A stretch of 33,861 nt of DNA from Neolecta irregularis DAH-3 (taxonomy: Eukaryota), in NCBI GenBank assembly GCA_001929475.1, contig LXFE01000343.1, positions 1 through 33,861 of the forward strand, in the 5' to 3' direction. Shown here piece after piece: positions 733 through 31,453 of the stretch. A model generated the notes under the pieces. It had not been told where the DNA came from. It saw only the letters and a program-made list of their open reading frames with translations, and made no database searches. The position numbers and the translations under genes were made by a program. The stretch's first letter is position 1. Each line of letters opens with the position of its first letter.

Positions 733-2540
<1,808 letters not shown>

Positions 2541-2723: not shown

Positions 2724-3135
2724 ATGCGACCACCGATCCGGCTTGTTCATCTCCTTCCCCTGAAAAAGAGACAAATGGGCACTAAAGATAGCTGTGGATG
2801 TGGAGAATTGTTATCGGAACATGACAGATCAACCCGTCTGGCCCCTTTGGTTACGCGATCACATAATCCATGGGTCGAAACTTCCGGGAAGTTGCATAGA
2901 TCGTTCACTTTCAAAACTTTTCCATCCGCTTGGGCATTCATGAATCAGGTTGCTTTGAGAGCGGAGAAAATGAACCATCATCCTGATTGGTTTAATGTAT
3001 CTTCTTTACGTCTGCAGTATTAATTTGGGCCAGTCATATAACAAAGTAGATATTGAGCTGACTACACATGCCAAAGGCGGCATCACTATCTCTGATATCA
3101 AACTGGCGGAATATATAGATGGGATAGCTTTGTGA
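2724..3135 (+). CDS. Pterin-4-alpha-carbinolamine dehydratase (PCD/DCoH family); intron 2997-3033; alternative ATG at 2775
   Basis: [64 protein letters not shown] matches the PCD signature HHPxWxNxYxxVxIxLTTH. Confidence 0.92.
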
Positions 3136-6871: not shown

Positions 6872-7364
6872 CTATGAGACGGAGGACCCTGGTTGAGAGT
6901 GGTCTCGTTTGTAATCTGTAAAGCCGAGAAAGGAGTTTTCGCAGTAGAGGGAGCTCAGTGGAGGGAGCTGAATTGCAACAGGTGCCTTTGTGATGAGTTC
7001 GTCGAGATCGGGGACAGGTTCATTGTTGCGTTTTGCCTTTGAGACGATGTAGTCTCTCAGGACTCGGTTCTCGCGGGTCAAGAGAGCGAGATGCCTCTGG
7101 GTCTGCTCGAGGACTACGGCTTTGCATTCGAGCTGGTGGATTCGTTCTTCCTTGCGCTGGCGAAATGCCTGCTGCGCTTTTCTATTCTGCTCGGCCCTAC
7201 GAATTTAACGATGGAGATGCAAGACTGCTTTACCGCTTCGAGTCTTTCAAGGGGCGCTTGTTGGTGCGCTGGGGCGAAACAGTGTCTGGGCAGGTGGAGG
7301 TTGATGGAGGAGGCGGATCGAGGAGAGCGCCGAGGGTGCGATCTGAGCCTACAGCGGAATCCAT
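6872..7364 (-). CDS. bZIP transcription factor, Yap/Pap1-type basic region, KapC-like; 37-nt intron 7233-7197
   Basis: Spliced sequence KRPLKDSKR|AEQNRKAQQAFRQRKEERIHQLE...LTRENRVLRDYI contains the NxxAQxxFR signature followed by a zipper. Confidence 0.85.
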
Positions 7365-7967
7365 TGCACATGAACGAAAAAAGAAAAAGAAAAAGCAAGA
7401 ATAGATTTTCTGGTGGGAGGCGCGGGCTGGTGATAAGGGCCGGCGAGTCGGGCAGGTGGTTTTGCTTAGTCAGACTCGGAAACAAGCGCGCGCCACGCAA
7501 CAGACGGGAGGCGCGGATGAGGCGCAAATTGGTGTCTGTGGCGCGGGTGAGGCGTTAATATCTCATCCCGTCACCACCAAGCGAACGCCCTATGCTTGTA
7601 ATTGCAACAAGACAAAGGCAGCGTGAGGAAAGACGTTCGCTTTTAGCACGATCGGGTTAAGGGAAACCCGTGGAATGGCCTTCAAGGTTGTTGATCTACT
7701 CTTGATCGGGTTAATCAAGTTCTCTTGCATTGTATTTCGGGACACTAGAGATTGTAATATGTCTAGTGCGGCTCACCTCCGACTCCACCACCAGCAGAAA
7801 TATCAACTAGTCTCGTGGAGTTTTCTCCCTACGTATCTACGGCGCTCCCTCTTTGATGAATACAAGCGAATATCCATTTTCTTGTAATCGATTATGCTTA
7901 CTTCGTACTTAATGCCTCGACTGTTTTATACCAGATATAATACTATACGCCCTACAACAGAGTGATA

Positions 7968-10900
7968 TCAGAACATAACATCCAACCTGTTCAACTCTCC
8001 AAATGTCTCGGAACTCATCCGATACTGGATCATCCCTGCAAACATCATAGCACATCTGGCCATTTTCCTCAACTCTCCCATTTTCTACCACGGTTAGTAT
8101 ACGCAAAGGAAGAGTGGGATAATATACATTTATTCTACTCACATCCCCAAACGGGCTTTCTTTGAGCTGAGTATGAATCGCAAGCAAACAATTCATAGCC
8201 ATGCTCAACATGATGGGAATGTTACTTGCGATATATTCAGGAAGAGAACTGAATAGTTGAACCTTCTTTTTCACTTTTCCAACATTCAGTTCCTTATCAA
8301 GAGGAATTAGTTCTAATGCATCAAGAATCTGTAATCAATGACATGAGGAAAGTAGAAAACATACGTGCAAACAATTCTCCCACTGTTGAGCTTCAAAAGA
8401 TGTTCTTGCTTCAACCATTTTTAGCAATGTTTGACAGGCATCACGATTGACCTGACTGACTCGAGAATATATCCTTGCATTTGCAGAGTACACCTGCATC
8501 ATATTTCGAGCCAGTTGAGCGGGACTTTGCTCTGCAGCAAGAGCGATGCTCGTGTCATTGGATAACATAGGTGTCTGGAAGAGTCGGGACGATGGATCAT
8601 TAATTGCATCCCCGAGAGATTTATTGATGATCGTTGCCACGGTATCATAGTCCTAAATATATGAGCAAAGGCTTATAGTAGACGTAACACACCTCTGATA
8701 AATGGTATAAAAGGACTGCATCTGATGTTCGACCATCAAGGTCAGCCTGTCTAGCCGCTTGCTCTGTAATGGTTCGTAGGTAATCAGCGTGATCTTCGAG
8801 ACCAATTAATTTGACTCTCTTCTGTATCGCTCCAATCTCCTTTCGTCCATCAGCCTTTACATCTCCCAACAACGCAGAGAATTCTCTAGTTTCAAGCGCA
8901 AGTTCGCGGATCATTTCATGGCAAAGATTGCGCTGTTCAGTACCTTTTGGTGAGGGTAAATCTCCGTTTAAACAGATTAGGCAGATATAATCCAAAGCCA
9001 TTTCAGGTTCTGCTCGCATAAACTCTTGGATATATGACCCTAAAAGGCGGGCGAAATTTATAAAAGCTTCTTCATTGCCGGATTTGAGGGGTTTCGTTGT
9101 CACTTTAATTAGTCTAGGGCATCAGGGTGTATCATACATAAGCTATCTTCGCTGACTTCTTTGATAGAGGGAACACGCAGTAAGCCATGATAGCACAAAC
9201 CTACGGCAAAATGAACCGCGTCGGTATTATTCCAATTCAACAGATAATTCACACCCTACAGGTCAGTACTTGTTTTGCAAATATAGCGAACGCGTTCAAA
9301 GAGTCCGCAGAGAAGCAATAGTTGAAAATAAATGACCGGGTTGTTCCCTTTTTGATTGAAATGTTTTGCCCCAAAACTCATGATGGTATTCTGCAGATTA
9401 ACTAGTCCAAACTCCTCGCCGGAAATCTCATCATTCGAAGCTTCGCGGCAAAGGATGAGTTGGAGCCACATCCAATCTTCTGTTGTTGGACATACGTCTC
9501 CAAGGTTGCGCTTTGATAAATCACATCTTCCAATAATTTTATAGAGTGCTGTCTTGAAGGGATCTTGGGTGAAGCGGATTCTCTGGGAATACTCTGAATG
9601 AAGGCGGTCTCGTAATTGGCGGGGAAGACGGCGTTCGGAAGATGTTGCGTAGGCTTTCAAGTATGACACAAAGTGACGTTCGAGGCGGATGATTGAAGAT
9701 TCATGAGTTTGTGCATATTGGACGGCTTCAGTTAGATAGCCTGATCGGAAAAGGTAGAAGAGCAATGCCCAAATTGGGATATTGTTCACAATCTAGTAAT
9801 CAACTATTTGTTTGATTAGCACTTATTACCTCGAGGTTTGGGTTTTCCCAAGTATGATTGCGGTAGAATCGAACTTTGAGATATCCTAGCGCCTTATTCT
9901 GGATCGAAGGAACACCTCCAATGTTTGCATCTTGAGGGTTTCGAGCGACTTCAGTCTCGACATGGGCGAAGAATCTATCTTTAATTTCCAAAGCTAAAAT
10001 AAACATACTGATTCTCCAAATATCTCCGAGAACCGTCCGTGATCCGAGTACGAACAAAAACACCTTCTTTACTCTCGCTGCTGACTGCTGCGTAATGTAT
10101 GGCAAATTGCCGTTCCTTAATGACATCTCGAGTGAACTGGCCATTGAGAACACCACTCTCACCCACGATGCTTGATAGTATTCTCCAAGAATCGAATAAT
10201 TGTTGAGATTTCTTCAATTAGTACTGTTGAATATATAAATATTACGATATCTGATCCCAGAGATTTGATAGCTTCCCCAAAAGCTGACATGACAGGCATT
10301 GGTTTCTTCTCAATTCTTTTTATTTGGAGCAATTTGACAACTTGGCCGTATCTGGTCTGCCTGTGTATGTTGGGAGAAGAGGCTTGGGTCTGGGATTGAC
10401 GAAAAGTGTCATCTCGTCCAAAGACGCTCTTTCCAAATGTACTTTTTCTAAAATGGCTTTTCCCAAAGACACTTTTATCGAGAGACTGCTGGGAAGATTG
10501 CTGGTCTTGAGTCGATTTCAGAAATCCAAAGTGTTCGAAAAACTTTTGTTTCTGCTTTTCCCATTCTGCATTGAGGTTCTTTTCGAGGAAAAGGTCAAAT
10601 TCTCTGCTGCGGCGGGCCATATCTTGTTCCATTGCTGCCATGATAGACTGTTCACGCCGGTATCGCAGGTACCCCTGGGAGATCAGACGACTGGATTAGA
10701 ATAATAGTACATCAACATCTGTATCCGAGATTGGTGGACCAGAATCATAGGTTGACTGAAGTGCAATTGTCCTCAGCACCTGAGCAGTTTCCTCGGCGTT
10801 CATCCCAGAATTGGCCAAAAGATAATGACTAGAGCTTAAATACATAACTATTGAAGCTACTCACGCTTTTGTATCCCCATCGCGCGCCTGTGCGGCCTTG

Positions 10901-11270: not shown

Positions 11271-13641
11271 ATGTCGCAAAGTCCTGCACCGGGAAAAGTT
11301 TATGCTCTGCCAGAAAAAACTATTCCACCGCCGCTGCAGGATTGCAACGACTACAACAATTTTCGCTCGACTAAAACTCCCATAATTATCGATAATGGTT
11401 ATCTCGAAATATGCTTCGTTCAACTAATCTCCAGGGTCCTGGCAGTGCAGGGCAGGCTGGGCATCTGAAACTCTGCCAAGATACTCTTTCGAAAATCAGA
11501 TTTCAAAGTATCGAGACCGAAAAATGAATAGGTCTTTAAGCTACGTCGGTTCGGATATCCTCTCAGATCCTGCCGCCTCCTTCAATATCAAAAGCGCATT
11601 CGACCAAAACGTAGTAGTCAACTGGGAGTCTATTGTTTGTCCGCATCTCCTACAATAGTGTTCATGATACAGGAAATGGTCATGGATTTTGTCTTTCTGC
11701 GGATGGGTATCGATAGCGATAGGATCGATCATCCCATTGTCATGACCGAGCCAATGTGCAATCCTGGCTACAATCGCAAATGTATCCCGGTCCACGGAAT
11801 CAACAATTGACTGGTAGATATGACAGAAATGATGTTTGAATGTTACCAAGTACCATCCTTGACATATGGAATCGACAGTCTGTTCAGTTTCTACGCCAAT
11901 GATGGCACAGACGGTATTGTCGTGAATAGCGGGAACAATACGACTCATGTAATCCCCGTATCAAAAGGAAGGGGTGTTCTTTCAATGGGAAAGCGGTATC
12001 CTTCCTCGTCGCATCTTCACCAGACTGACAAATGTCGAGGCTATCGTGGGGTGGTACACAGGCGTCAGACCTAATGTTGAAGCTTATGCAACTCAAATAT
12101 CCAACTTTCCCCTCAAAATTGCAGCCTCATCAAGCCAATTCACTGGTAAAAGAACATTGCTACGTTAGTTCAGATTACTATGAAGAAGTATCAACCATGC
12201 TGCAGTCTGAAAATCTTGCAACCAAAGACCATGCCATCCAATTTCCATTCATTGAAGCAGTAGGCCAAACCAGATACAATAACTTACTTGTAGATTCAAA
12301 TCGAAAAAACCCAGGAGGAACTAGCCCTTGCTGCTGAGAAACGCAAAGAACATGGGAAAAAGTTGCAAGAAATAGCAGCAAAGGCTCGCCTTGAGAAGGT
12401 AATTTTCTTGGAATTTCACTGCTAATCGTCAGCTCATCCAGTATGAACAAGATTTGGATTACTACAAGGAAATACAGGAACGCGGCAAATCCGAACTCAA
12501 ACGAGACTTTAAGAAAACATTGGAAGGTGCAGAATTAAAAGATGAAGCAGACCTGGAAAATACAATCAAGAAACTTGAATTTAAAATTAGACGAGGAAGA
12601 AAACAAGATGTCGGGGGCGAAGACGAAGCCGAACAAACATTTCCACTACTCGATGTCCCCGATGATCAACTCGACGAAGCAGGCCTCAAGCAAAAACGTC
12701 AACAAAAGCTCATTAAAGCAGGGTACGAGGCTCGTCAACGTGCAAAAATTGAGAAAGAAAAAGAAAGGCAACGGCTAGAGGAGGAGGATAGGAAAGACGA
12801 GCAATGGAGAGAACAAGATTTAGATACTTGGCTTTCCGACAAACGTCAGAAACGAAATATCTATATCCAACGAATCAAAGACAGGAAAAGATTAAAAGAA
12901 CAACTCCTCGATAGGAAATCCCTCGCAAATCAAATGAGGATGAAAAGCATTGCTGCTCTGGCTAGCGATGCACCCTCTACAAAGAAACGTAAACGGGGTC
13001 AAGATGAAGATACCTTTGGCGCCAACGATGACGATTGGAGTATTTATCGCGATATAGCCAATGCATCGGATTCAGAGGACGACGAAGAAACTTGTATGCA
13101 GTTACGAAAGCTCGAAGATCAGTTATCTCAATTCGATTCGAATTTCGACCCAGAGAGTGCTCTTGACGCTCAAAATGACCCTCAAAAAAGTCTTCTAAAT
13201 AAATTTCTGAAAGCGGGGAAAATCGGCGAGGAGACAGATGCCCAGGTATATCAACTGCATCTCAACGTCGAAAGGATTCGTGTTCCTGAAGTTGTATTTC
13301 AGCCTAGTATTGTGGGATTAGATCAAGCTGGAATCATTGAATTACTTTGCGGAATGATGAAAAATTTAAATACCGCAAGCGAAATATTCACGACTGGTGG
13401 AAACACCATGTTTCCTAATTTCAATGAACGCCTTGAACGAGAATTACGAGCAATAATGCCTATCGGACGAAATTTGGTAATTCGGGCTGCCAGGAATCCA
13501 TTACTGGATGCATGGAGAGGGGCGGCAAAATGGGCTTGTTCAAACGAGTTTGAAAAGTTTGCAGTAAGAAAAGATGAGTATCTCGATAAAGGGACTGATT
13601 ATTTGAAGGAGCACGGAATGGGTAATTTCTCTCAAAATTGA
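11271..13641 (+). CDS. ARP5: Actin-related protein Arp5 (INO80 subunit); 6 introns
   Basis: PIIIDNG|SWQCRAGW, MTEMMFECYQVPSLTYGIDSLFSFY, charged insertion with DDTFG-like DEDTFGANDDDWSIY, LHLNVERIRVPEVVFQPS, LLDAWRGAAKW and YLKEHGMGN. Confidence 0.95.
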
Positions 13642-16598: not shown

Positions 16599-17486
16599 AT
16601 GAAGGTGCGCAGTATTCCGGTTCCTTGCAGGAAAATTTGACCAATGTAGTTGAATATCGCTCACCCTGCAAACGGGTCACAGAAATTGATCGAAATTGAC
16701 GATGAACGACGACTGTACAAGCCTTTAAATCGATTCAACATTGATTTGACAGCCGCGATTTTATGGACAAGAGAATGGGGGCTGAAGTTGCTGGAGATTG
16801 TCTGGGTGATGAATTCAAAGGATACGTCTTCAAGATCACTGGTGGAAACGACAAACAAGGATTTCCCATGAAACAAGGTGTTCTTTTACCCCATCGAGTT
16901 CGTCTTTTGCTCTCCGCTGGTCATAGCTGCTATCGACCTCGACGTGACGGAGAACGAAAGAGAAAATCTGTCCGAGGTTGTATCACCGGACAAGATCTTG
17001 CCGTTATGTCTCTTGTTATCGTTAAGCAAGGAGAAGCTGATATCCCGCAACTCACGGATGTCACCCACCCAAAGCGTCTCGGTCCTAAACGGGCTTCCAA
17101 TATCCGAAAATTCTTCGTATATTGCCCATTCCACGTTCAAATTGTTAACATATATAGAATTTGACCAAAGAAGATGACGTTCGAAAATTCGTTATTCAAA
17201 GAGAAGTTGAACCAAAAGGTGAAGGAAAGAAGACATACACAAAATCTCCTAAGGTCCAACGGTATATTTCTTTTATATCCTGCTTTATGTGCTGATATTA
17301 AGATTGGTTACCCCAACCACTCTCCAACGAAAACGAAGACGAATGGCTCTTAAAGTAAGACGTGCTGAAGCGCAAAAAGAAGCCGCTTCGGATTACGCCA
17401 AATTATTGGCTAAACGAGTAGCCGAAGAGAAAAACAAGCGAACTGAACTGAAGAAGAGACGTGCAAGTTCGATGAATAAGAATTAG
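16599..17486 (+). CDS. RPS6: 40S ribosomal protein eS6; introns 16605-16649, 16715-16752, 17117-17157, 17262-17302
   Basis: [55 protein letters not shown] and C-terminal RRASS phosphosites. The 6-nt first coding exon is typical of RPS6. Confidence 0.98.
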
Positions 17487-17660
17487 GTTGTCAACCTGTT
17501 GATTCATTGAATACAATTGCCAACTTCATTTTTCTATTTAGCACTAGTTAGTTTCTCGTGAAATGCGAGATTCTTAATCTAGTGGTATGAGTTAATGACG
17601 TTATCACCCCGGGGTATCCCGTCGTAACGTGATTATTTTACATCAATTCACATTTACCAA

Positions 17661-18921
17661 ATGCCTCCTCACCTAGAAATTATTTTTACGGTATTGACGC
17701 ATTTGTCCACTCAACAAATGTTTATTTCAGTCTTCTCAAGTTGAATCATTCTTTGACATCGCTTTTGTGCCAAGAGATAATATATTTGCTGTAGTTGGTG
17801 GTCGAACTGTATCCCTTCAATCTTTCCAAAAAATTGATTAATCCAGAGGTATTACTTTTCGAACCTTTTGAAAGATCGGTCGACATGCTCGGATCTTTCT
17901 TCGACTCTGCAAATGTATATTACTCCTAATTACTATGATTGATAATTTAGGCGGCTGAGGAATATTATTGTTGTTGTTGGACATGGATCGACGATGTTTA
18001 TGTTCTTTGCGTTGCTGGAAAAGATGGAATAATCAAAGTCTTAGATGTAAATAATATGACGCTCCTAAAAGTAATTTTACAGGAGGCTTTATTGCTGATT
18101 TCTAGACGCTGACAGGGCATGGGTTTGTAGGATCATTCAACAGATTCTTTTTAAAGATTAGGCGATCCTGGATCTTTCAACCCATCCAGTTAATTCAAAT
18201 ATCATTGCATCAGCCTCTGAAGATAACTCGGTTCGATTATGGGACATTCAGTCTGGAGAAACCGTTTCTATATTTGGCGGAGATGGAGGACACAAGGAAC
18301 AAGTCATTTGCTGCGTATGTCTGTTCCTCGCCTGTGAGGCTAATGATGTAGACATTCCATCCATCAGGTGAATATCTGGCATCTGGCGGAATGGACAACA
18401 CTCTCAAAATTTGGAAAATTCCAGAGAATTTTCACAAGTTACAGATCTCGCACCCAATCTTTTCAAGCAGGGAGATGCATACGGACTTTATTGATAGTAT
18501 CCAGTTTTATGGAGACCTGATCATCGCAAAAGCTGCTTCCCAGTGTCGAATTATCATTTGGCAGATAATTGGCTTTCCTTTATCGACAAAAGCGGTTGTC
18601 AACATAACAATAAAATCATCTAGCGTAGAAAGAATTGCAACTTTAGATCTTCCGAATAGTCAAAACTGGTATATTCGACACTCTATCAGCTCTGATGGGC
18701 GCCTTATCTGCGGGAATGGCGCTGGATCGATATTCAGTTGGACTTTGGAAGATTTAAGGATTCAGAGGCCAGTAGAGCCTATCAAGGCGAATTGGTCTGG
18801 TCAAATTCCTGGCTACATGGGCACAATCAGGAAAGTTGAGAGTTCGAAAGATGCACAATATCTCATCGGATGTGGAGAAGGTGGAAAGATTGTAGTATGG
18901 AGGATGATAAATGATAAATGA
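17661..18921 (+). CDS. EED: Polycomb WD40 protein EED/ESC/FIE (PRC2 core subunit), about 345 aa; introns 17691-17730, 17809-17848, 17915-17950, 18071-18105, 18127-18161, 18315-18351
   Basis: Colinear with EED motifs as recalled: IFAVVGGRTVLLFE, EEYYCCCWT, LCVAGKDGIIKV, GHG.AI..L..HP, SEDNSVRLWDIQ, IFGGDGGHKEQV, SGGMDNTLKIW, HPIFSSREMHTDFIDSIQFYGDLIIAK, NWYIRHS, GN..G.I..W.L and GTIRK. Confidence 0.88.
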
Positions 18922-19080
18922 TAATATTAAAGATTGATTCTTCACAAGACAGTATATGACAAGCACCCAAACCAGACTTATATACAAAACATTGATTCTC
19001 TCGACCGTGGAGATGAAATATTTTCTTTAAACCATGAGGCACACATTCAGGTAGAGCACAGCCAAAAGTCTCCTGGTAAT

Positions 19081-19641
19081 TTACGACTTCCGCCCATTCC
19101 TATTCTGAACCATTTCAAACCCATCTTGATCAATAACCGGCCCTCTTAAGGGTTGAGGTTCGGCAGTTGTTTCGTCAACTTCCATTGATGCATCGCTTGC
19201 TTCATCATCATCATCTGGATTGTCGCATCCCTCAACTACAATTTGGATAGGTGTGGTGCTGTGAGCATGATGCCGTAGTTGGAGTTTGGTTACTGGTTCA
19301 TAGTTTCCTTGCCTGCATTCTTGATATATTATCATGATGTCTCTGGCATTTTCGCAGGCAGAATCGTCGTCTACGTCTACATTGAACTCGTCTTGCATGA
19401 CTTGTAGCAGTCGAGCTTCTACATCTTCTTCACATACTTGGCTTCCATCTAGACTTTTAGCATATTTTATAGAGTTTTGTAAACCCTCGAATAGATCTAC
19501 CACAGCACCAGCAAGCCAATCTCGTTTATCGCCACTATCTGGCCCACCCCAATGATTCTCGACTGCTACTCGCAAAACAGTCCATTTATACAAGATCAGA
19601 GCTACGCCTAGTTCGAAATACCGTCGTTGAACATTTTCCAT
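19081..19641 (-). CDS. TSR2: Pre-rRNA processing protein Tsr2 (eS26 escortin, WGG family); probable in-frame 36-nt intron 19484-19449
   Basis: FELGVALILYKWTVLRVAVENHWGGPDSGDKRDWL, LLQVMQDEFNVDVDDDS, an acidic tail and C-terminal DQDGFEMVQ. Confidence 0.93.
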   Translation of the reverse strand: MENVQRRYFELGVALILYKWTVLRVAVENHWGGPDSGDKRDWLAGAVVDLFEGLQNSIKYAKSLDGSQVCEEDVEARLLQVMQDEFNVDVDDDSACENARDIMIIYQECRQGNYEPVTKLQLRHHAHSTTPIQIVVEGCDNPDDDDEASDASMEVDETTAEPQPLRGPVIDQDGFEMVQNRNGRKS

Positions 19642-19904
19642 TACTTAGTAGGTGGGGTAGAAATAAACTAACCACCAAACTTCAATATCGATCACGCTTC
19701 ATCTCGACACGACTTCTCTTCCAGTCTATCACCGCCAACCTCTACTTTTCTCTATCAACATCCTCCAAGACTGGTACAAATTATTCAGAGATTTCAAACG
19801 CTGAATCACTAAAAGCATTCAAATATATTGTGGTTTTTCCACCAAAGGTAGCTAGGAGCTGCGATCCCTTCTGTGCCGCGGAAAATCCTGGGTTTCTCGC
19901 CACC

Positions 19905-22900
19905 ATGCAGATTACGAAATCGCTTCCAAAGCGTCTTACACCTCCTGTATGTATTTAATGGGATCATCAATAACCAGCAATAGCCCCCTGAAATCAAAAA
20001 ATTCATTGACATCGCTATATCAAGTCTAGATGTCGACTTGCCTAGCCATCTTTCATCATTGCAGAAATGGGTATACCCGCGTGGCGAAATGTTTCATTGG
20101 ATCCCTGTTCTAAATCGATTGGATGAAGTTTTGGAGAAATTGGTTGAAAAATACGAATTGACCAAAGTGCAAGGAGCTCCTTTCGAAGACTTTGATAAAT
20201 CCACTCTACTCTCGGTTCTCAAATTCACCTCATTCTTGTTCGATCATTCAGCGAATCGGTCTCTCTACAATTCATCCATGGTATCCTAACCTTTTTCCTG
20301 GATAGAGCTTATGTGACGTCAGCATTTGAACCATTTGTTACATACTACTGACATTGACGTTCTTGAAGCAAATCTTCGCCTGTGTCTTCGAATGGCCCAA
20401 CGGATACCAATGTCAGGTCATGCTAAGAACATTTATAAAATCAACCATGATCGAATCATGGAACTGGCTGTGAGTTGGCAGCGACAGAGGAAAACAAAAA
20501 TATCATTGGTTCAGTTGCTTCAAGATGACGCAGATATCCCAGAAGATTGGACGGGCCTGAGTTATCAATATTTTAGACAGGATCCCTCTCATTCGCCTGT
20601 CTCCGCATTTCGTCACACACATACTCAAAAGAAGAAAGAACCTGTTACTCCGACTCAGAAACGAGCTGTTGCTGAAGAGTACACTGAAGGCATAGTTGCC
20701 ATTGAAATCTCGGCAGAAAAACTCCAGAAGAGCTCTCTGGAACATGTTGTTCAGCAAACCATCACACAATTCGACCTCCCTCTTGAACATCAGCCTGAAT
20801 TTCTCTACCGCGTTCGATTGGCGAAATATATCCAAGATCCTATTAGACGGAAACAATTGGTTACCTGCCGATTGCTCGCACTGGCTAATGCTGGTAAGAA
20901 ACGCTTTAGCCTTGAACTGACATTTAGCCTACCTTGCTCTTGATTCGCCAAAAGAAGCTAAACTGATGATCTGTGAACCTGACATAATAGTTCGTCTCGT
21001 CGAAATCATCCATCCCGAAAACCATGTTCGTCGGGACGTTCAAACTATTGCTCTAAACGCCCTGGAAGCCTTTTCACATCAAAGTAATGCAGTAACAGAA
21101 GTTCTGACTGAGCTGAATGTTGCTATCAATCATGGGATTCTTTTGTCAGTTCTTCGAATGATGATTCGAGACTTTCAAGAAAGTAAACGTGTGCATCCGA
21201 CCTTATTTGGATATCTTGCTCACGTATTCAGCTGTTGATGAGAACTTTCAGGAGGCGATGTTCCGAATACTGACCTACTTCATTACCATTAGCACTGGCT
21301 CAGGAATGCTCTCATCTGCTGGTTTGATTCCAATCCTTGTTGCTATGCTCGATATTCAACACCCTGAAGCTCTTCGAGCCGTCTCTAAATGTATTGGCGT
21401 CATCGACCATCTTATTTTTGGGCTTCAGACGAGTTTCCAGTCATTCAGCAATGCGCAAGGTCTCAAATTTCTTGTAGATCGATTACAGGTACTGGTTTTT
21501 TCCGACCCTATACTAACTGTCAGCACGAAATTGATTACGGCATTAAACATGCATCTGCGCACACTGAACGTGTAATACCTCAAATGGACTACCAAATGCC
21601 ATACGAACGATTTACCCTCATCAGGACTTGCTTAAAATTCATCCTGCGTATGCTTACTACAGCTGGAATAGCGGACCAACTACGGAATCTCATTGATACA
21701 TCGTTGATCTTAACAATTGGCAAAGTTTTCAACCACTCCCAAGTTTTTGGAGCGACAATTTTTGCGACAATGACGAATATCATGGCGACATTCGTTCATA
21801 ACGAACCAACATCTTATGCCGTTATTCATGAATCTAAACTATCGCATACTTTCCTAGATGCGGTATCGCATGGATTTCCAAAGAGCAGCGAAGTCATGGG
21901 AATTATACCTCATGCCTTTGAAGCCATATGTCTCAATGCACAGGGAATGGAATTGTTCAAACAAATTTCACCAATGAAACCTTATTTTGAGGCGATGCTC
22001 GACGAGGCATACTGTCGAAACACCAGAGATCTCGAATCGGCCAATGCTGGAATCGGTCAAGGATTCGATGAGTTTTTACGTCATCAACCGTCACTGCGAA
22101 GCGATATTTATCGGGATATCCTCGGCTTAATTCGTCGCGTTGTAGACTATGGCGTCCAAAACCCTATTCCTCTGTTGAATGTTAACAAGAGCACCCTAGT
22201 AGAATCTTTGGTTGAAACGTCGGAAGATGTCTCAATGCGTGATGTCTCGAAAGACGTTAGGCAATGCAAAAAAGATGACGAGGAAGAAGTTGCATTTATT
22301 CTTTATCTAAACGTCGTTGCCGCATTCGTCGACGGTATGCTACAGAATCCGAATCAAGTCAAGGAATTCCTCAAGACAGAAGGACTTGATCTCTTGGTAC
22401 AACTGTACACCTCACCCGGACTTCCTTATGACTTTGGTTATTCGTCTGCCGCTTATTCGTTATCACATACCTTCAGACTTGTCGTCGAAGCTAAACCAGA
22501 TGTTGCGATTCCTGTAGTACTTAAAAAGGTCAGGGAGGTGCTTGAATTGATTCGACCAGTACTTGACTACAATGGCTCAGATTCGTTCCTCCGGCAATTC
22601 ATCGATATTCACGAAAACGATCTGGATGTGGCTAAACATGGGAATGAACTCATTAGGAACCTCATCTCTTCTCATGGCCTAATGATGCTTCTGTCTGATT
22701 TATATGCCAATCCAGCTATCAGTCATGGCAAAAGTTACATTTCTCTTTACCAACCCTACATTGAAACCCCGGAATTTCAAGATCTAATCAAGACGATTGG
22801 ACTGCTTCATCGTGTATGTATTTGGGAAGATTTGATGATCATCGGTACCATGTCGAAAGACTGGAACGATGCAACAGTAGCTAAATCAGAAGAACAACCT

Positions 22901-25900
22901 TCAGAGAACGATGAGATAGAGAAACGAAGGGTCCAAGCGGAAAGAGCCATTGATACCTCAGATCCGAAATTCAAAAATGCTAAGATCATCAGATTTTTGA
23001 TCAGTCAAATTCCAAGCGGTATTACACCGACGTTTCAGGGTACATTTGAGGAAAGAAATTAGTTGATTCTTTCTAGGTCTTGGTCGAATCTTAATTTCTC
23101 GAAGGTCTTCTGATAACAATCAAAGAAGGTTGTCATTTGCTATGGGAAAACAACTCGCTATGGTTTTGATAGAGCATATGAACTGGTCCAGAGCAGGTAC
23201 GTCATCTTGCAGTTCAAAACTTCTTATAACTTTAGCTGCCAGATCTACGAAAGACATGTATAGTTACTGGATTGTCATGCTAACCTTAATTCATGGTGTC
23301 CTTTTAGACGGTATTTCGATATTTGATACCTTTCCTTTCTAACTATAGATCGATCAAGCATGAACTCAAATTGCTCGCTTCTCACTTGTATCATGCTTCC
23401 CTTTCAGCAAAACAACGGCCTTGAATCTGTCCTTCGCATCCTTGAGCATTTTTGGCAAGAAGCCAAGTCTGTTCCAGAAGAACTAGGCAACGAAAATCTC
23501 ACTAACGAGCACCTATCGTCAACAACTTCCGCACATGTTCTAGGTGGATTGAAAGTCATTTTTCAATTCCTTCTTCAAATCACACGCTCAAAAACGGTTA
23601 TTGATGCTGCTCAAACTCAGGTTATGCAAGCCAGAACTCAGGATTTGGGTAAAGATGAGTATTTTGTTCCATCAGCATTCCTTCTGCGATTAAGATATAT
23701 CGTATTTCCGACAATTCAAATATGTTGGAAATCAGAGCATCTAATTAAGTTATCAAACTCTCTGGTCAAATTCCTCAGTCAAGTCCTTGCTCAATTGCTC
23801 AAAGGCGAAGGAGAAATCAATTTAATGCCTCAAGAACGTGAATCAAGCACAAGTGTTGCTTCATTTCCTGCTTTCCGTCGAGCGTTGGATGCGACTAACA
23901 ATCCTCGACCTCCAATTCAGTTATACGATGAATCAAATGTTCAGGCTCTTATGGAAATGGGATTTTCTCGGGGTGCTGTTGAAAGAGCACTTACTCGAAG
24001 TCGTAACAGACTTGAAGTGGCAACAGAATGGCTTCTGGCTCATCCAGAAGCCCATAGCTTGCCTCCTCTTTCTCAATCAATCACTCCACAACCCGAACGA
24101 CCCAGTTCAAGTCTAGCTGCCGAAGGAGGTTCGACAGCTGGGGATACTGAACAAGTTTTTCCAGCGCCGACCGTCAGTGAAGCAACAGTTGATGAAGGAA
24201 ATCCATCCATCCGAGTACCTGCCACTCAGCCTACTGCACCAGACGACAATTCCTCTCTCATGAATGTCGACGAAGAATCTAGACCTCGATCCAGCATTGC
24301 AGATCCTACTGGGGATGTTGAAATGGAAGAAGGACCTCTTCGGCCGCAGGTAGTTTTACCGCTTCCCCTGCTTGCAAAAGGCAAAAGCAAAGCAGCCCTT
24401 CGACGTGATGATACGGAAGAACTAATAAAACGAGTCTCAGAACTCCGAAATGATTCTCGAGCTACGATAATTGAACGTGCTCTCGATATTCTACAAGCCC
24501 ATCCAGACGTCTCATACGATATTTCAAAACTCATTATCGGTGCGTCAGATGGGTCTATACATCAGGAGTGGAGATTAGAAACGACAACGGTCATTATCGA
24601 GAGCATTCGTAGTCTTGCAGGTTCTCGAACTGATCCTTGTAAAGGTCTAGCTTTGACCTCTGTCATCCATCTCTTTGGACTTCTTATTCACGAAAAACCA
24701 TATTACTCGGATGCGTCTGCTGCCATCCAGGCAGATCTCCCGCTTCTCGTCGAAATCTCCCGTGTTAATGATGATGAATCTCCGCCTTGGTCCGCACATG
24801 TATTTTTAATATTCGAAGAGCTCTTGAATCACAGCGACCAGCCTATTCATGTCACTCTAAATCAGCATGGAGCTGAGGAATTTGTTGCTCGTTCCAAAAC
24901 TCCAATCGATGTGGTTAAAATTGATCTTGATGTTCGCATTCAGATATTCGAAAATATATTGAAAGTCCTCCAAACCCAACCTCAAGATAAAAATCTTGTT
25001 ATTACAGTCCTTCGTTTACTAGTGCGATTTACCAGGCAACGAGAACTTGCCACCCGAATGGTGCAAGATGGAGCTCTCGCAAATCTCTTTGGTACCATCC
25101 GAAAGCTATCTGGGCAGCATCTTCAAACCATTCAAGTCCCTCTTCTCCTCGTCCTTAGACACATCGTTGAAGATGAGTCGATTCTTCGGTCTATCATACG
25201 GACTCAAATTCGAGCAGCCTGTCGACCCAGTCGGTACGGTACACATGCTACTGATATGACCGTTTTTATGAGATCCACAGCGCCGGTCGTTCTTCGAGAT
25301 CCCGATACATTTTCTCAAATCATAACGGAACAATGTAAGCTTGCAGAAGGAGATCTCGGCATTTCGCAGCATTTCATCGACTTGAGAAGTCCCCCACAGA
25401 ACAAGGACGCAAATAGAGCAGAGACCTTGACAGATAGCAAAGAATCTCACTCACAGGACAGCAATACCAAACCACCAGGTGTGGAACATCCCGATGGAGT
25501 CATTCATTTTCTTGTTACGGAACTTTTGGCCCTTAAAGACATTGCTGATGGGGAACCTGAAATCAAACAGTCCGATAAAGTTGACGATGCTGAGACACAC
25601 AAGGAGGAAAAGAAGGTTCAGGATTTCAAGCTCGAAGAAAACTCGGATTTTCTTTATCGACTCTTCCTCCTTCAATGCTTGACTGAATTACTGGGTGCTT
25701 ATAATCGCTGCAAACTTGAGTTCATCAACTTTTCTCGTCGAGCTCATCCTAGAGAAACGATTACCCCTTCTAAACCACGCTCAACAATTCTCAACCACCT
25801 TCTTTATGATCTTATTCCGTACGATGTCAATGATTCGTCAGAAGCTCTTAAACCACACCTTAAGAAGCTCACCTCAGATTGGGCTATGTGGTGTATAGGA

Positions 25901-28900
25901 AGCTTGCTTTCCCATACCGGCGAGTTGCCAAAAGACGAGGAAACCTCGGACTTTATATTCGTTCGGAAATTTGCTCTAGAGGGGATTTTGAAAGCATTCA
26001 AGGAAGACACCGTTCACTATGAAACTCTCGACGCCCGTTATACTCGCTATATAGTACTATCCGAGTTGATTTTCAAATGTATTGTCCCCAAAGAAAATAT
26101 TCAGCAAGGTTTACGTCGCATCGCAGTGGATACAAATGATAAACTTGAGAAGCTTATGTTCGAGAAAAATTACATCAACGTTCTAACAAGCGTCGTTTCT
26201 GATGTTGATCTTAACTTTCCTACAGCAAGCCGAGTAGCTCGAAAGATTCTAAAGCCGCTTAAGCACTTGACGAGTGTTGCTAGCAAAATCACGGAGACCC
26301 GCGATGTCAATATTGGCGATGAAATTTCAATTGCTGAAAGTCTTTCTGACGCTGGGTCTGATGGTCGCGAAGAAACACCAGACTTTTATCGTAATTCTTC
26401 TCTGGGAATGTTACATGGAGACATGGAAGAAACTGAAGGTTCTGAAGAATTCGACGAGAACCAAGACGAGGATATGTATGACGAGATGGATTTCGATGAA
26501 GAAATGTCAGGAAGCGGGGGAAGTGGAGGAAGCGCTGTCAGTGACGAAGAGAGCGAGCATGAGCATGATCTTGGTCATGATGATATGAACGTGAGTGTTT
26601 TGTCATTTCGACACCGATACTGATTACATAGGTCGAAGTCGTACTCGAGGAGGAAGATGACTCAGAAGACAGTGATGATGAATCTCATTCTGATGAAGAC
26701 ACAGAAGCTAGCGCAGATAGGTATTCTGATACAGGTGGCCTTGAAGTTGTGGCCGATGACGAAAATGAGGGTCAAGAAGAATGGCAAACGGAATCTGAAG
26801 GGTCAAACGAACACGAATCTGAAGCAGCGGCGCGGCGCTTAGCAAGCACCCTCGAGACGATGCAACAATTTCCTGGAGGGGGAGCCGTTGGTCGAGCTCG
26901 AGAAGATCCATTCAATGAAGAGATAGGTGAAGAATCCGATGACGAAGAAGCAGACATGGATGGAGATGATGGATTTCTAGATGGAGACGATGATGACGAG
27001 GAGGCAATGGACGACTTTCAGTGGAGCTGGGGGCCTGATCTTGGTGATGGGAGCGGTGTACCTACTATACGACCACGTTCGCATAGATTCGTGTCTCGTC
27101 ACGTACGCGGACTTGGTTAGGCCCTTTGAATCATTTCCTTGCTTATACCCTTTAGAAGACGTGCCTATGTTTAGACGCAACAGGATCGATGCGCCTGCGA
27201 ATCGAAATGATGAATGGGTTTCGCATCCTCTCCTCCAAAACCCAGCTACGAATCAGCGGGCAAATCCCATTTCTGGAGCAGAACCTGACAATGTTGAGAG
27301 ACGGCATGCTGTTCGTCTCGAACAATTCACAGATTGGGTCCAATCGCTTCAAGATTTCACTGGAAACGGGGGTGTTCATGTTCTCGGCGACATCCTCAGC
27401 CGTGCTACTGCGAGAAGTGCACTGCAACCTGGGGGTATTAGAGTAGAACTTACCACAACAGGCCCTGTCGCTGCTCGTGAACTTGAGGCTCTTTTTGGTG
27501 GAAGAGCTGCCCTAAGGAACGACTTTTCTCGAAGTCACGTAAAACAACAAGATACCTTCCATTATATCAAAGCCTTTCTACCTGCAACAACATCTCAACG
27601 ATGGCAAGACGAGGCACGAATCATGTACGGCAACAATTATCTTGAAATCGCCAATCGAAGCGTCAATATCTTTCTAAATCGCTTGCTTCCCGAAGCTCAT
27701 GAAGTAGAGCGACTTCGAAAAGAAACGCAGGCCAGAGCCATTGAAGATCGCCGTGCTCAAGCCGAGAAGAAAGCTGCAGAAGAGGCTGATCAGCAACGCA
27801 TCAAGGCTGAAGAAGAAGCTGTTCGGGTAGCTAAAGAAGAAGCCGAAAGGAAGGCTCGCGAAGAAGAGGAAAGGATTCGTGCTGGGGCTGAGGCTGAGGC
27901 TGAGGCTTCCAATGCCGATAACTTAAATGAAGCAATGGAAGGAGTCGAACGAAACGAATCTGTTGATCAACCTGCTGGTGGAATAGGTCCTTCCATTCCA
28001 ACAGAACGTCGAGTTGTCAACATTTCCGGACGAGAATTCGATATCACAGACCTGGAAATTGATGTCGAATTTCTTGAGGCGCTGCCAGAAGAAATGCGAG
28101 AAGAAGTTCTCACCCAAGCGATTCGCGAGCAACGCCCAGAACGTTTGACCGATCAGTCGACTGAGATTAATCAGGAATTTCTTGATGCACTACCGGCAGA
28201 AATTCGTGCAGAAATTCTCGCACAAGAAGCATCCGACCGAAGTCGGAGAAGCCAGCAATCACGTCGAGGTCAGGATCCTAGCCCTGGTGCCTCTCATACA
28301 AATGCCCAGTTGGGTGATTTAGGATTCCCTGATCTTATCACGACATTAGACCCAGCTCTTCGTAACTCGGTCCTCGCTGAACACGACGGAGAGGTCTTGA
28401 GTAATCTTCCGCCTCACCTTCTCGCTGAAACTAGCGATCTTCGAAGAGCACTTCCCACTGACATGCGGGATCTTCGTGGTGGGTTTGACGGGCTACAGGC
28501 ACGGTATGGAGCTCTTCGGCATGCTTTTAGGGACCTCAAACGTCCCACCAACCCACCCGACTCTAAATCACAGAAAAAAGATGCCGTTCAACTTCTCGAT
28601 AAGTCTGGTATTTCTGCTCTCATCCGTCTCGTTTTCCTTCTGCAAAACCCTATCCGCACAACTCTGTCAGATGTACTCCTCAATGTCTGCGAAAACAAAC
28701 ATAACCGTGCGGAAGTTGTAACTTTGCTTTTATCGGTACTTCAAGATGCAACATACAACTTGAGTTCGATCGAGAAGAGTTTCGCTCAACTAACCTCTCG
28801 TGTCTCCAAAAATACTCCTAGCACACCGAAATCTGCTTCTAAGCAACGTCAAAGCGGCTTCCCTACTCTATCATTATCAAAATCTCTGGGAGAGGATGCC

Positions 28901-31453
28901 CCGAATTTGGTTACTCAGCAATGTATTTTTATTCTAAATCATCTTGTCGTTAACAACGAACATTTGCCATCATTTTTCCTTAACGAACATGAAACTGCTG
29001 CTCTTAGCTTAAAAAGATCTTCCAGCCGGAAGGGAAAAGGCAAGGAGCCTGCTCGGAATTCGAAATACCCGGTTAACACACTCCTTGGGTTGCTGGATCG
29101 TTCAATCATTCTAGACAATTCCTCAACCGTCGAAACATTTGCACGATTACTCTCTATTGTTACACGACCTCTTATGATGCTGCTCCGAAAGGATAGGGCT
29201 AAGGATTTGCCAAAGAGTGGAAGTAAAGAGGATGAGAAGATGAAAGAAAACCTGGGTTTCTCTGAGGTAACACATACTCAAGGTTTACATCATCTTCGAT
29301 TACAGACTGATTTCTGCAGACCCAAATACTTCTCTAGCTGCTCCAGAAATCCTGTCAATAGCGAAAAAAGACGATTCTGAGGGAAAGAGAAAAACTAAAA
29401 CCCTTCAACCTCCTCAGATTGCGGAAGCAAACATCAAGCTAATCTGCAACATCTTAAAAGCTCGTGATTGTGGTAGTAAGACCTTTCAATATACTCTCGC
29501 CACTATGCAGCACCTCTCGGCATTACCGGAAGCTAAACAAATATTTGCCATTGAACTTGCGAAGTCTGCGCAGGACTTAAGTGGGACTATTTTGCCAGAT
29601 CTAGAAGAGCTCCTCTCGCAGATACAAGGTGCACCTCCAGATTCAGAAATTAATGGACAAGCACTATCCCGATTCTCTCCTGCCAGCTCTCATCAGACTA
29701 AACTTTTACGAATCCTTAAAGCAATCGATTACCTCTTCGATCGTAATGCGAAGCCACCTGCAATTGACTCTGATAGAGAAGAAGTGACCAAATACGAAGC
29801 CGAAAAATCGCGTATTCACAACGCCTATCAACAACTTTCATTTGGCATGGTATGGAAAATATTAAGCGAGTGTCTTTCGGCTGTACGCTCAAGGCCGGAG
29901 AACATGCATATCGCGTCTGTCCTACTACCGCTTATCGAGGCCTTGATGGTAGTATGCAAAAACGCAGGTATCAAAGACGCCAAATCTCCTAGTGTATTCC
30001 GTCAAACAATCCTAACCAGAAATGATACAATGGAAACCCTTTTTTTCAATTTCACCGAAGAGCACAGAAAAATTCTTAATCAAATGGTTCGTGCTACGCC
30101 TTCGCTGATGAGCGGCTCATTTGCGCTACTGGTCCAAAATCCAAAAGTTCTTGAATTTGATAACAAACGGAATTACTTTAGTAGAAAGTTACATGAAAAA
30201 GCAAACCGAGAAAATCACGGAGTTCTACAGCTTAACATTCGGAGGGATCTTATTTTCTTGGATTCTTATCGTGCTTTGTATTTCAAATCCGGGGATGAAA
30301 TGAAATATTCCAAACTCAACATCCGATTTGCTGGCGAAGATGGTATCGATGCGGGAGGATTGACTCGAGAGTGGTACCAAGCTCTTGCAAGGCAAATGTT
30401 CAATCCCGATTATGCACTCTTCACGCCAGTCGCCTCCGATCGCACAACATTCCATCCGAATCGAACTTCAGCGATCAACCCGGAACATCTTTCGTTCTTC
30501 AAGTTCGTAGGTCGAATTATCGGTAAGGCGTTGTATGATGGGCGGCTGTTGGATTGCCACTTTAGTCGAGCCGTTTATAAACATATTTTGGGGAAACCGG
30601 TTGCTCTTAAAGATATTGAAACACTTGATTTGGATTACTACAAATCACTACAGTGGATGCTAGAAAACGATATTACTGACATTATCACGGAAACGTTTTC
30701 AATCGAATCGGACGAATATGGAGAGAGAAAGATTGTAGATCTTATCCCAAATGGCCGTAGCATTACCGTTACGGAAGAGAACAAGCATGAATATGTTCGT
30801 TTAGTGGTGGAATATCGTTTGAACACTAGTATTCAAGATCAGTTGTCCAACTTCCTCACTGGTACGCGATTGCTATCCTCCCTGTAATCTCATACTTTAG
30901 GATTCACAGATATCATCCCGGAAGACCTTGTTAAAATTTTTAACGAGCAAGAACTGGAACTTCTTATATCTGGTTTACCTGATATTGACGTTGATGACTG
31001 GAGGAATAATACAGAGTATGCCATCAAGTGAAAGGCTTACTGACCTGTGCAGATATCATAATTACAATGTGTCCTCACCTCAAATTCAATGGTTTTGGCG
31101 AGCAGTACGCTCGTTTGACCCAGAAGAAAGAGCCAAACTTTTGCAGGTATACAATATCTACAAATGATTACTGATGTGAAAGTTTGCCACTGGGACCTCA
31201 AAAGTGCCATTAAATGGCTTCAAGGAACTTGAAGGAATGGGTGGGCAACATCAACGCTTTAACATCCATCGTGACTACGGATCTGCTGATCGACTACCTC
31301 AGAGTCATACATGTTTCAACCAGGTATTCTTTCAGTATGTTTTACATCTTCTGACTACAACAGGTGGATTTGCCTGAGTACGAAACTTACGAGCAGTTGC
31401 GGAGCACTTTGTTGAAGGCGATTACAGAGACGCAAGGGTTTGCTTTCGCTTAG
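19905..31453 (+). CDS. TOM1: Large HECT E3 ubiquitin ligase Tom1/Ptr1/HUWE1, roughly 3650 aa, 15 short introns
   Basis: [19 protein letters not shown] (DUF908 region), FVHNEPTSY (DUF913), a UBA domain ([15 protein letters not shown]...ATEWLLAHP), an acidic region, UBM repeats ([15 protein letters not shown]) and a HECT domain ([15 protein letters not shown]...[10 protein letters not shown]...GFAFA*). Confidence 0.97.

What the first reader, a model, noticed from the sequence alone, without database searches (positions are those of the whole stretch)
17661..18921. Minimal Polycomb EED with an intact aromatic cage, suggesting PRC2 in a fission-yeast relative
Seen: the roughly 345-aa spliced product is essentially a bare WD40 propeller with no N-terminal extension or long insertions. 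Residues equivalent to the human EED cage F97, Y148, W364 and Y365 are present (SFFDIAF, EEYYCCCW, NWYIRH), by alignment from memory. All six introns are phase 0 and there is a 21-nt micro-exon, so most of the gene is missing from the ORF track. Established: EED binds H3K27me3 and allosterically activates EZH/KMT6; S. pombe and S. cerevisiae lack PRC2. Inference: this compact genome keeps a streamlined H3K27 methylation system, or an orphan EED with a new role.
Basis: partly seen in the sequence, partly recalled or inferred. Interest (0 to 1): 0.75.

Follow-up and report, generated by a model that had tools for sequence, protein, structure and literature searches.

The report
Neolecta EED (Polycomb) gene, already annotated
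This is a real, expressed seven-exon gene for the Polycomb protein EED in the fungus Neolecta irregularis, a relative of fission yeast; the public record already names it, but nobody seems to have discussed what it implies for Polycomb silencing in this group.

Summary
Window 17661-18921 (+) carries a 7-exon gene with six GT..AG, phase-0 introns of 35-40 nt and a 21-nt micro-exon, giving 345 aa. The product is identical to GenBank OLL25642.1, "Polycomb protein EED [Neolecta irregularis DAH-3]", on a 33,861-nt contig, which is the window's length. So the gene and its name are already public.

A spliced contig in coded run X2 joins exons 3-7 exactly, micro-exon included.

EED identity is solid:
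- Human EED aligns in one stretch, residues 28-339, at E 1e-42.
- Foldseek ranks 1-50 against PDB are all EED.
- VIA gives Z 41 and rmsd 1.9 Å over 317 residues.

The alignment shows Y64, W262, Y263 and R265 opposite human Y148, W364, Y365 and R367. The F97 equivalent (F18) is plausible but was not aligned. The protein lacks the insertion domain of other fungal EEDs.

The PRC2 claim is only partly testable, because no genome is held and I had no EZH query. One lead exists. A supplementary table of the Neolecta genome paper lists, unnamed, a Neolecta homologue (E about 1e-22) of NCU05460, which is N. crassa SUZ12. EZH remains unverified.

Interest is moderate to low: this is a known family and an already annotated gene.

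The parts
17661..17690 (+). Exon 1 (10 aa, start codon ATG 17661-17663)
   Evidence: An in-frame stop lies 11 codons upstream (ORF 17628-17744). In the model it forms strand 4-8, and model residue 1 aligns to EED residue 81/82. No transcript cover.
17691..17730 (+). Intron 1, 40 nt, GT..AG, phase 0
   Evidence: Predicted only, not covered by X2.
17731..17808 (+). Exon 2 (26 aa). It holds SFFDIAF, residues 16-22; F18 (codon 17752-17754) is the candidate equivalent of human F97.
   Evidence: F97 equivalence is not shown by any alignment.
17809..17848 (+). Intron 2, 40 nt, GT..AG, phase 0
   Evidence: Predicted only. The X2 contig starts at 17847.
17849..17914 (+). Exon 3 (22 aa)
   Evidence: X2 record 3, 17847-17914.
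17915..17950 (+). Intron 3, 36 nt, phase 0, removed in the X2 contig
   Evidence: joint 17914>17951, GT..AG.
17951..18070 (+). Exon 4 (40 aa). It holds EEYYCCCW, residues 61-68; Y64 is opposite human Y148.
18071..18105 (+). Intron 4, 35 nt, phase 0, removed in the X2 contig
   Evidence: joint 18070>18106.
18106..18126 (+). Exon 5, 21-nt micro-exon (TLTGHGF)
   Evidence: both flanking joints lie in one contig. The same residues are contiguous in relative P0003.
18127..18161 (+). Intron 5, 35 nt, phase 0, removed in the X2 contig
   Evidence: joint 18126>18162.
18162..18314 (+). Exon 6 (51 aa), canonical WD repeat
18315..18351 (+). Intron 6, 37 nt, phase 0, removed in the X2 contig
   Evidence: joint 18314>18352.
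18352..18921 (+). Exon 7 (189 aa plus stop). It holds NWYIRH, residues 261-266; W262, Y263 and R265 are opposite human W364, Y365 and R367.
   Evidence: X2 contig runs to 18931.

Best explanation
The gene encodes the EED/ESC/FIE orthologue of Neolecta irregularis. It is a seven-bladed WD40 propeller with no N-terminal tail and no fungal insertion domain. It is expressed and spliced as predicted.

By homology (inference), its top-face aromatic cage (Y64, Y263, probably F18, with W262 and R265) binds trimethyl-lysine, canonically H3K27me3. Its bottom face would bind the N-terminal helix of an EZH/KMT6 methyltransferase. On that reading it is the product-sensing, allosterically activating subunit of a PRC2 complex.

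Shown here: gene structure, expression, family membership, and conservation of three cage residues plus R367.

Inferred: methyl-lysine binding, partnership with EZH and SUZ12, and H3K27 methylation in Neolecta.
For: - Identical to OLL25642.1, named 'Polycomb protein EED'.
- phmmer against PDB: human EED at E 1.1e-42 in a single stretch, 28-339 against 112-437. WDR5 and designed repeats match only the canonical repeats 93-180, in several stretches.
- Foldseek ranks 1-50 are all EED: human at E 1e-28, Chaetomium at 5e-23.
- VIA: EED fills ranks 1-41 with Z 39-41.5 and 28-31% identity. The next families (Ciao1, LIS1, WDR5) have Z about 37 and 18-19% identity.
- The ESM Atlas structure search puts chordate EED first (TM 0.91). 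FIE and EED clusters are among the nearest by features.
- Cage residues and R367 are aligned. Their role is described in PMC5224880 (passages read).
- A spliced contig in X2 shows expression.
- A relative, P0003, is 89% identical and 97% similar over 251 aa and has the same WYxR motif.
- A SUZ12 homologue in Neolecta is listed in Supplementary Data 1 of PMC5309816 at -log10(E) 22.06, with none in S. cerevisiae or S. pombe. NCU05460 = NcSuz12.
Against: - No EZH/KMT6 gene was seen. None lies in the window, and the rest of the genome could not be searched.
- NCU07496 (SET-7) and NCU05300 (EED) are absent from the supplementary list. That list excludes families with good yeast hits (methods), so this says little either way.
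[quoted passage not shown] Its held supplement lists only Schizosaccharomyces among the six Taphrinomycotina genera I searched for, Neolecta included.
- The F97 equivalent is unverified.
- No EED orthologue other than P0003 could be retrieved, so no phylogeny was made.
- EED also binds other trimethyl-lysine peptides (PDB titles for H3K9me3, H1K26me3 and H3K4me3). An intact cage therefore does not prove H3K27me3.
Confidence: 0.75

Rival explanations
1. Orphan EED. Neolecta has lost the EZH methyltransferase, and the propeller survives as a methyl-lysine reader or scaffold in another complex.
For: EZH was not found or searchable here. EED crystal structures exist with H3K9me3, H1K26me3 and H3K4me3 peptides (titles), so the cage is not specific to K27. 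The nearest sampled relatives (S. pombe, T. deformans, S. complicata) score 0 for SUZ12 in the published table, so PRC2 is decaying in this subphylum.
Against: The same table lists a SUZ12 homologue in Neolecta. Two dedicated PRC2 subunits kept together argue for the complex. From my own knowledge, not tested here, clades that lost EZH have as a rule lost EED too.
Confidence: 0.17
2. The contig is not Neolecta DNA but comes from another organism in the sequenced material, so the EED says nothing about Taphrinomycotina.
Against: GC is 41-47% across the window, against 44% reported for the assembly (PMC5309816). The stretch lies in a high-depth contig of X1. The EED lacks the insertion domain typical of Pezizomycotina EEDs. 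Its identity to human and Chaetomium EED is only 28-31%, so it is not a copy of an animal, plant or Pezizomycotina gene.
Confidence: 0.03
3. A WD40 protein of another family (WDR5, Ciao1 or LIS1-like) that merely resembles EED.
For: Pfam reports only generic WD40. VIA Z scores for other propellers are close, 37 against 41. The word-index and representative searches returned generic WD40 proteins.
Against: Only EED aligns end to end in one stretch. EED takes Foldseek ranks 1-50. Identity is 28-31% to EED against 18-19% to the others. The EED-specific residues Y148, W364, Y365 and R367 are kept. The Atlas names FIE/EED.
Confidence: 0.02

Closest known systems
Human EED / Drosophila ESC (PRC2 regulatory subunit; PDB 3IIW, 2QXV, 5HYN)
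   Same: Seven-bladed WD40 propeller. Model residues 1-342 superpose on EED 82-440 with Z 41 and rmsd 1.9-2.0 Å over about 317 residues at 29-31% identity. Y148, W364, Y365 and R367 are conserved. There is no large insertion.
   Different: It lacks the roughly 80-residue N-terminal tail of human EED: 345 aa against 441. The F97 equivalent is unverified. The partner EZH is not shown.
Chaetomium thermophilum / Neurospora EED (Pezizomycotina PRC2; PDB 5KJH, 5BJS)
   Same: Same fold, Z 39-40 and 28% identity. The exon-7 segment HPxFSS...FYGDLI aligns at E 7e-15.
   Different: Pezizomycotina EEDs carry a large 'insertion domain' (reviews PMC8788455 and PMC7348808, passages). The Chaetomium chain spans 12-554 for about 330 aligned residues. 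The Neolecta protein has no such insertion.
Plant FIE (fertilization-independent endosperm)
   Same: Bare propeller of similar length. Atlas clusters of 350-406 aa named FIE/FIE2 are among the nearest by features (0.96) and by structure (TM 0.85).
   Different: Different kingdom. No alignment was made, because no FIE sequence was available to the session.

Membership tests
EED/ESC/FIE family | Seven-bladed WD40 beta-propeller | tested here: met
   AF2 model with pLDDT 77.8 and pTM 0.80, all-beta, 29 strands. It aligns over 1-342 to EED propellers.
EED/ESC/FIE family | Full-length sequence similarity highest to EED rather than to other WD40 families | tested here: met
   phmmer against PDB: human EED at 1.1e-42, one stretch 28-339. 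Higher-ranked hits are designed or tandem repeats that match only 76-180, many times over.
EED/ESC/FIE family | Closest solved structures are EED | tested here: met
   Foldseek ranks 1-50 are all EED. VIA ranks 1-41 are all EED.
EED/ESC/FIE family | Aromatic cage Y148 and Y365 (with W364 and R367) for trimethyl-lysine | tested here: met
   Y64, Y263, W262 and R265 are aligned to them. The cage is defined in PMC5224880.
EED/ESC/FIE family | Aromatic cage residue F97 | tested here: inconclusive
   The HMMER alignment starts at residue 28. Exon 2 alone finds no EED. F18 precedes strand 19-22, so the match rests on position only.
EED/ESC/FIE family | Groups with EED/ESC/FIE in a phylogeny | not tested
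   No EED orthologue except P0003 could be retrieved.
EED/ESC/FIE family | Binds the EZH N-terminal (EBD) helix | not testable with these tools
   No EZH sequence of this organism was available, so no complex job was sent.
Fungal (Pezizomycotina-type) EED | Large insertion domain near the C-terminal end | tested here: not met
   345 aa. The only low-confidence loops are 233-245 and 292-298. Chaetomium EED spans 12-554 for the same fold. The feature is described in PMC8788455 and PMC7348808.
PRC2 complex in this organism | EZH/KMT6 catalytic subunit (CXC + SET) encoded in the genome | not testable with these tools
   No genome is held. None was found in the window ORFs scanned.
PRC2 complex in this organism | SUZ12 (VEFS-box) subunit encoded in the genome | not tested
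   Literature only. NCU05460 (= NcSuz12) has a Neolecta hit at -log10(E) 22.06 and presence value 1 in Supplementary Data 1 of PMC5309816.
PRC2 complex in this organism | H3K27me2/3 present on histones | not testable with these tools
   Needs an experiment.

The most novel reading that the evidence does not exclude
Neolecta, alone among the sampled Taphrinomycotina, keeps a working and unusually plain PRC2: EZH, an insertion-free animal/plant-like EED, and SUZ12. Polycomb-type H3K27 methylation would then have survived in the one lineage of this yeast-dominated subphylum that builds complex multicellular fruiting bodies, and would have been lost later and separately on the way to fission yeast.
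Probability: 0.6. Interest if true: 0.55.

Novelty: new member of a known kind. Interest (0 to 1): 0.38.

Why it matters
S. pombe is the textbook heterochromatin model that lacks PRC2. An expressed EED with its cage intact, together with a listed SUZ12 homologue, in a member of the same subphylum dates that loss to after the split from Neolecta.

It would also add PRC2 to the genes that Neolecta shares with filamentous ascomycetes and that the yeasts lack, which is the theme of PMC5309816. A 345-aa EED without the fungal insertion domain could be a convenient minimal fungal EED for structural work.

The gain is limited. Independent PRC2 losses in ascomycetes are already accepted, because Pezizomycotina keep the complex. 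The protein is also already named EED in GenBank and UniProt.

Tried and rejected
- Retrieving EED orthologues for a tree. The word-index searches found only generic WD40 proteins apart from P0003: exon 7 against longer proteins, 2 hits; full protein, 54 hits; residues 176-345, 1 hit.
- The exhaustive representative search with exon 7 gave 26,094 hits at E<=0.001. Of the 150 listed, only P0003 was EED-like and the rest were long multi-repeat WD40 proteins. No phylogeny was made.
- DNA of the relative P0003, wanted for dN/dS and intron comparison: two metagenome scans found nothing.
- RNA runs: no RNA holder is listed. X2 is on record as 'DNA?' but behaves like a transcript assembly.
- Exon 2 alone against PDB, to place F97: only a chance hit at E 2.7.
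- Literature co-mentions: Neolecta+Polycomb 0 papers, Neolecta+H3K27 0, Saitoella+H3K27me3 0. Neolecta+histone gave 13 papers (11 listed), none on PRC2 by title. Taphrinomycotina+PRC2 gave 3 papers and Taphrinomycotina+H3K27 gave 4, none reporting PRC2 in the subphylum.
- A six-term search returned no Neolecta paper in its top 10 and was not informative.
- The review PMC7348808 names no Taphrinomycotina genus.
- The terms Polycomb, EED, zeste, SUZ12, VEFS and H3K27 do not occur in the one held supplement of PMC5309816.
- Papers not held: PMC3625340, PMC7225565 and PMC7261115. bioRxiv supplements and other supplements of PMC5309816 were not visible and might list EZH or EED.
- Earlier scan notes: none for this genome or sequence. 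Two notes on Encephalitozoon PRC2 genes did not bear on this case.
- No complex prediction was sent, for lack of a partner sequence.

Full report
WHAT IS THERE

I read 17300-19300 and the stop-to-stop ORFs, then built the gene by coordinates in a script. It has seven exons: 17661-17690, 17731-17808, 17849-17914, 17951-18070, 18106-18126, 18162-18314 and 18352-18921. The six introns are 40, 40, 36, 35, 35 and 37 nt. All are GT..AG and all are phase 0. The CDS is 1038 nt and gives 345 aa without an internal stop. Exon 5 is 21 nt.

PUBLIC STATUS

The exhaustive representative search with exon 7 gave one close hit, P0003. Its 90% cluster holds a second member, P0153. P0153 is 345 aa, has accession OLL25642.1 / UniRef100_A0A1U7LSX3, and is named "Polycomb protein EED [Neolecta irregularis DAH-3]". 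It lies on a contig of 33,861 nt, which is the window's length. P0153 is identical to my seven-exon translation.

The window is therefore a N. irregularis contig, and both the gene model and the name EED are already public. Neolecta is in Taphrinomycotina, the subphylum of Schizosaccharomyces. The window's GC of 41-47% fits the 44% reported for the assembly (PMC5309816, passage).

EXPRESSION AND SPLICING

Two coded runs hold the stretch. X1 is probably the source DNA. It covers the stretch in one unspliced contig.

X2 belongs to the same study and is on record as 'DNA?'. It has a 942-nt contig that lies on 17847-17914, 17951-18070, 18106-18126, 18162-18314 and 18352-18931 with no mismatch. It skips exactly introns 3-6.

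X2's cover is transcript-like. One contig ends at 17612, after the RPS6 gene. There is no cover over 17628-17798 or 18939-18995. Depths differ, about 483 for RPS6 and 52 for EED. X1 shows no joined form. I read X2 as RNA-derived. The gene is then expressed, and four of six introns, including both sides of the micro-exon, are confirmed. Exons 1-2 are not covered.

Two things support exon 1. There is a stop 11 codons upstream. Model residue 1 also aligns to residue 81/82 of human EED, where the propeller begins.

IS IT EED?

Pfam sees only generic WD40. The other evidence is specific:
- phmmer against PDB: human EED matches the full protein at E 1.1e-42 in a single stretch, 28-339 against 112-437 of the 441-residue chain. 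Chaetomium EED matches at 6e-37. The formally better hits are designed or tandem WD40 repeats that match only residues 76-180, many times over. WDR5 matches in three short stretches.
- An AlphaFold2 model built on a 22-row alignment (A1) has pLDDT 77.8 and pTM 0.80 and is all-beta.
- Foldseek against PDB gives EED at every rank from 1 to 50: human at E about 1e-28, Chaetomium at about 5e-23.
- VIA-align re-scoring gives EED at ranks 1-41, with Z 38.9-41.5, rmsd 1.8-2.9 Å, 308-332 residues aligned and 28-31% identity. Ciao1, LIS1 and WDR5 follow at Z about 37 and 18-19% identity. The Z gap is small, as expected among seven-bladed propellers. The gaps in identity and coverage are clear.
- The ESM Atlas holds this sequence. 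Its nearest clusters are FIE/FIE2 and EED by features. By structure, chordate EED comes first at TM 0.91.

I could not make a tree. Three word-index searches and two metagenome scans returned no EED orthologue except P0003.

THE CAGE

PMC5224880 (passages) names Y365, Y148 and F97 as the aromatic cage for H3K27me3, with W364 moving on ligand binding and R367 at the pocket floor. In the HMMER alignment to human EED (positions):
- Y64 is opposite Y148.
- W262 is opposite W364.
- Y263 is opposite Y365.
- R265 is opposite R367.

The alignment begins at residue 28, so F97 is not covered. Exon 2 alone finds nothing. F18 lies just before strand 19-22 in the model. Y64 and Y263 lie at the starts of their strands in the same way, so F18 = F97 is a reasonable inference. 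It is not a result.

Relative P0003 comes from JGI/IMG and is 251 aa. It is 89% identical and 97% similar over residues 94-344. It keeps the NWYIRH motif, and it reads straight across the exon 5/6 and 6/7 junctions.

MINIMAL?

The protein starts where the human propeller starts, so it lacks the roughly 80-residue tail. It also lacks the large insertion domain that two reviews describe for fungal EEDs (PMC8788455; PMC7348808). Chaetomium EED needs residues 12-554 for the same fold. In this respect the protein resembles animal and plant EED/FIE more than Pezizomycotina EED. Atlas FIE clusters are 350-406 aa, so the size itself is not exceptional.

PRC2 IN NEOLECTA?

This is the weak point. No genome is held, and no tool gave me an EZH or SUZ12 sequence to search with.

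In the window I scanned 16 long ORFs. I then scanned 67 of the 120 stop-to-stop ORFs of 75 aa or more. Of the 53 left out:
- 16 had been scanned.
- 2 lie in the EED gene itself. One is exon 7, scanned; the other is an alternative-frame ORF that was not scanned.
- 35 overlap long genes in other frames and were not scanned.

No SET, CXC or VEFS domain appeared. The neighbours are an SRPK-like kinase, a pterin dehydratase, a Brr6-like protein, a bZIP, Nic96, an actin-related protein, RPS6, TSR2 and a giant HECT ligase.

In print, I found no paper joining Neolecta with Polycomb or H3K27. [quoted passage not shown] Its held supplement lists Schizosaccharomyces but none of the other five Taphrinomycotina genera I searched for, Neolecta included.

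One positive lead exists. Supplementary Data 1 of the Neolecta genome paper (PMC5309816, part 1 read) has an unnamed row for NCU05460:
- The best N. irregularis hit is at -log10(E) = 22.06, with no hit in S. cerevisiae or S. pombe.
- The presence value is 1 in N. irregularis, most Sordariomycetes, Leotiomycetes and Pezizomycetes, H. sapiens and A. thaliana.
- It is 0 in the three Eurotiales, the yeasts, S. complicata, T. deformans and S. pombe.

PMC7886369 (S-figure legend) gives NcSuz12 = NCU05460, NcSet7 = NCU07496 and NcEed = NCU05300.

SET-7 and EED are not in that list. The list keeps only genes whose yeast hits are at least 20 log units worse than the Neolecta hit (methods). That filter would tend to drop WD40 and SET families, so their absence is uninformative.

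Two dedicated PRC2 subunits in one genome make a complete complex the likelier reading. I put it at about 0.6-0.75. EZH has still not been seen.

VERDICT

The protein is an EED orthologue, already annotated as such. The PRC2 inference is plausible and has one supporting published datum, but it is unproven.

This is a new member of a known family in a clade where PRC2 has not been discussed. It is of moderate interest to fungal chromatin biologists and is not surprising in kind, since Pezizomycotina keep PRC2 and independent losses in yeasts are accepted (PMC8788455).

Noticed in passing
window 16745-17612 (+): Ribosomal protein S6e gene (PF01092, E 5e-47). Its X2 contig ends at 17612, only 49 nt before the EED start codon, so the EED promoter and 5' UTR must be very short or overlap the RPS6 3' end.
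   Followed up: partly
window 19036-19644 (-): TSR2 (pre-rRNA processing, PF10273, E 1.5e-28) converges on EED. An X2 contig begins at 19036, and the EED contig ends at 18931, leaving about 100 nt between the two transcripts' ends.
   Followed up: partly
window 19984-31164 (+): A giant HECT ubiquitin ligase of the HUWE1/Tom1 type (DUF908, DUF913, UBA, UBM and HECT domains in successive ORF pieces), split by several short introns.
   Followed up: no
window 733-2144 (-), 2724-3020 (+), 5344-5870 (-), 6875-7204 (-), 7912-10213 (-), 11428-13638 (+): Other neighbours by Pfam: a protein kinase with a long insert (SRPK-like by my reading), pterin-4a-carbinolamine dehydratase, a Brr6-like protein, a bZIP, Nup93/Nic96 and an actin-related protein. 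None is chromatin-methylation related.
   Followed up: no
Supplementary Data 1 of PMC5309816, row NCU07505: This row has almost the same presence pattern as SUZ12: 1 in Neolecta, and 0 in B. graminis and the three Eurotiales. From memory only, NCU07505 is epr-1, the BAH-PHD reader of H3K27me in Neurospora. The table itself labels it 'Mito ribosomal protein L18', and I could not verify the gene id. If my recollection is right, Neolecta would also keep the Polycomb effector.
   Followed up: partly
run X2 on window 17400-19100: X2 is on record as 'DNA?', but its contigs are spliced, stop between genes and differ tenfold in depth between neighbouring genes. It behaves as an RNA assembly.
   Followed up: yes
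P0003 (JGI/IMG, contig 1734 nt): An unnamed environmental sequence encodes an EED 89% identical to this one and already spliced across two junctions. A close Neolecta relative therefore expresses, or is modelled to express, the same gene. Its DNA could not be fetched.
   Followed up: partly
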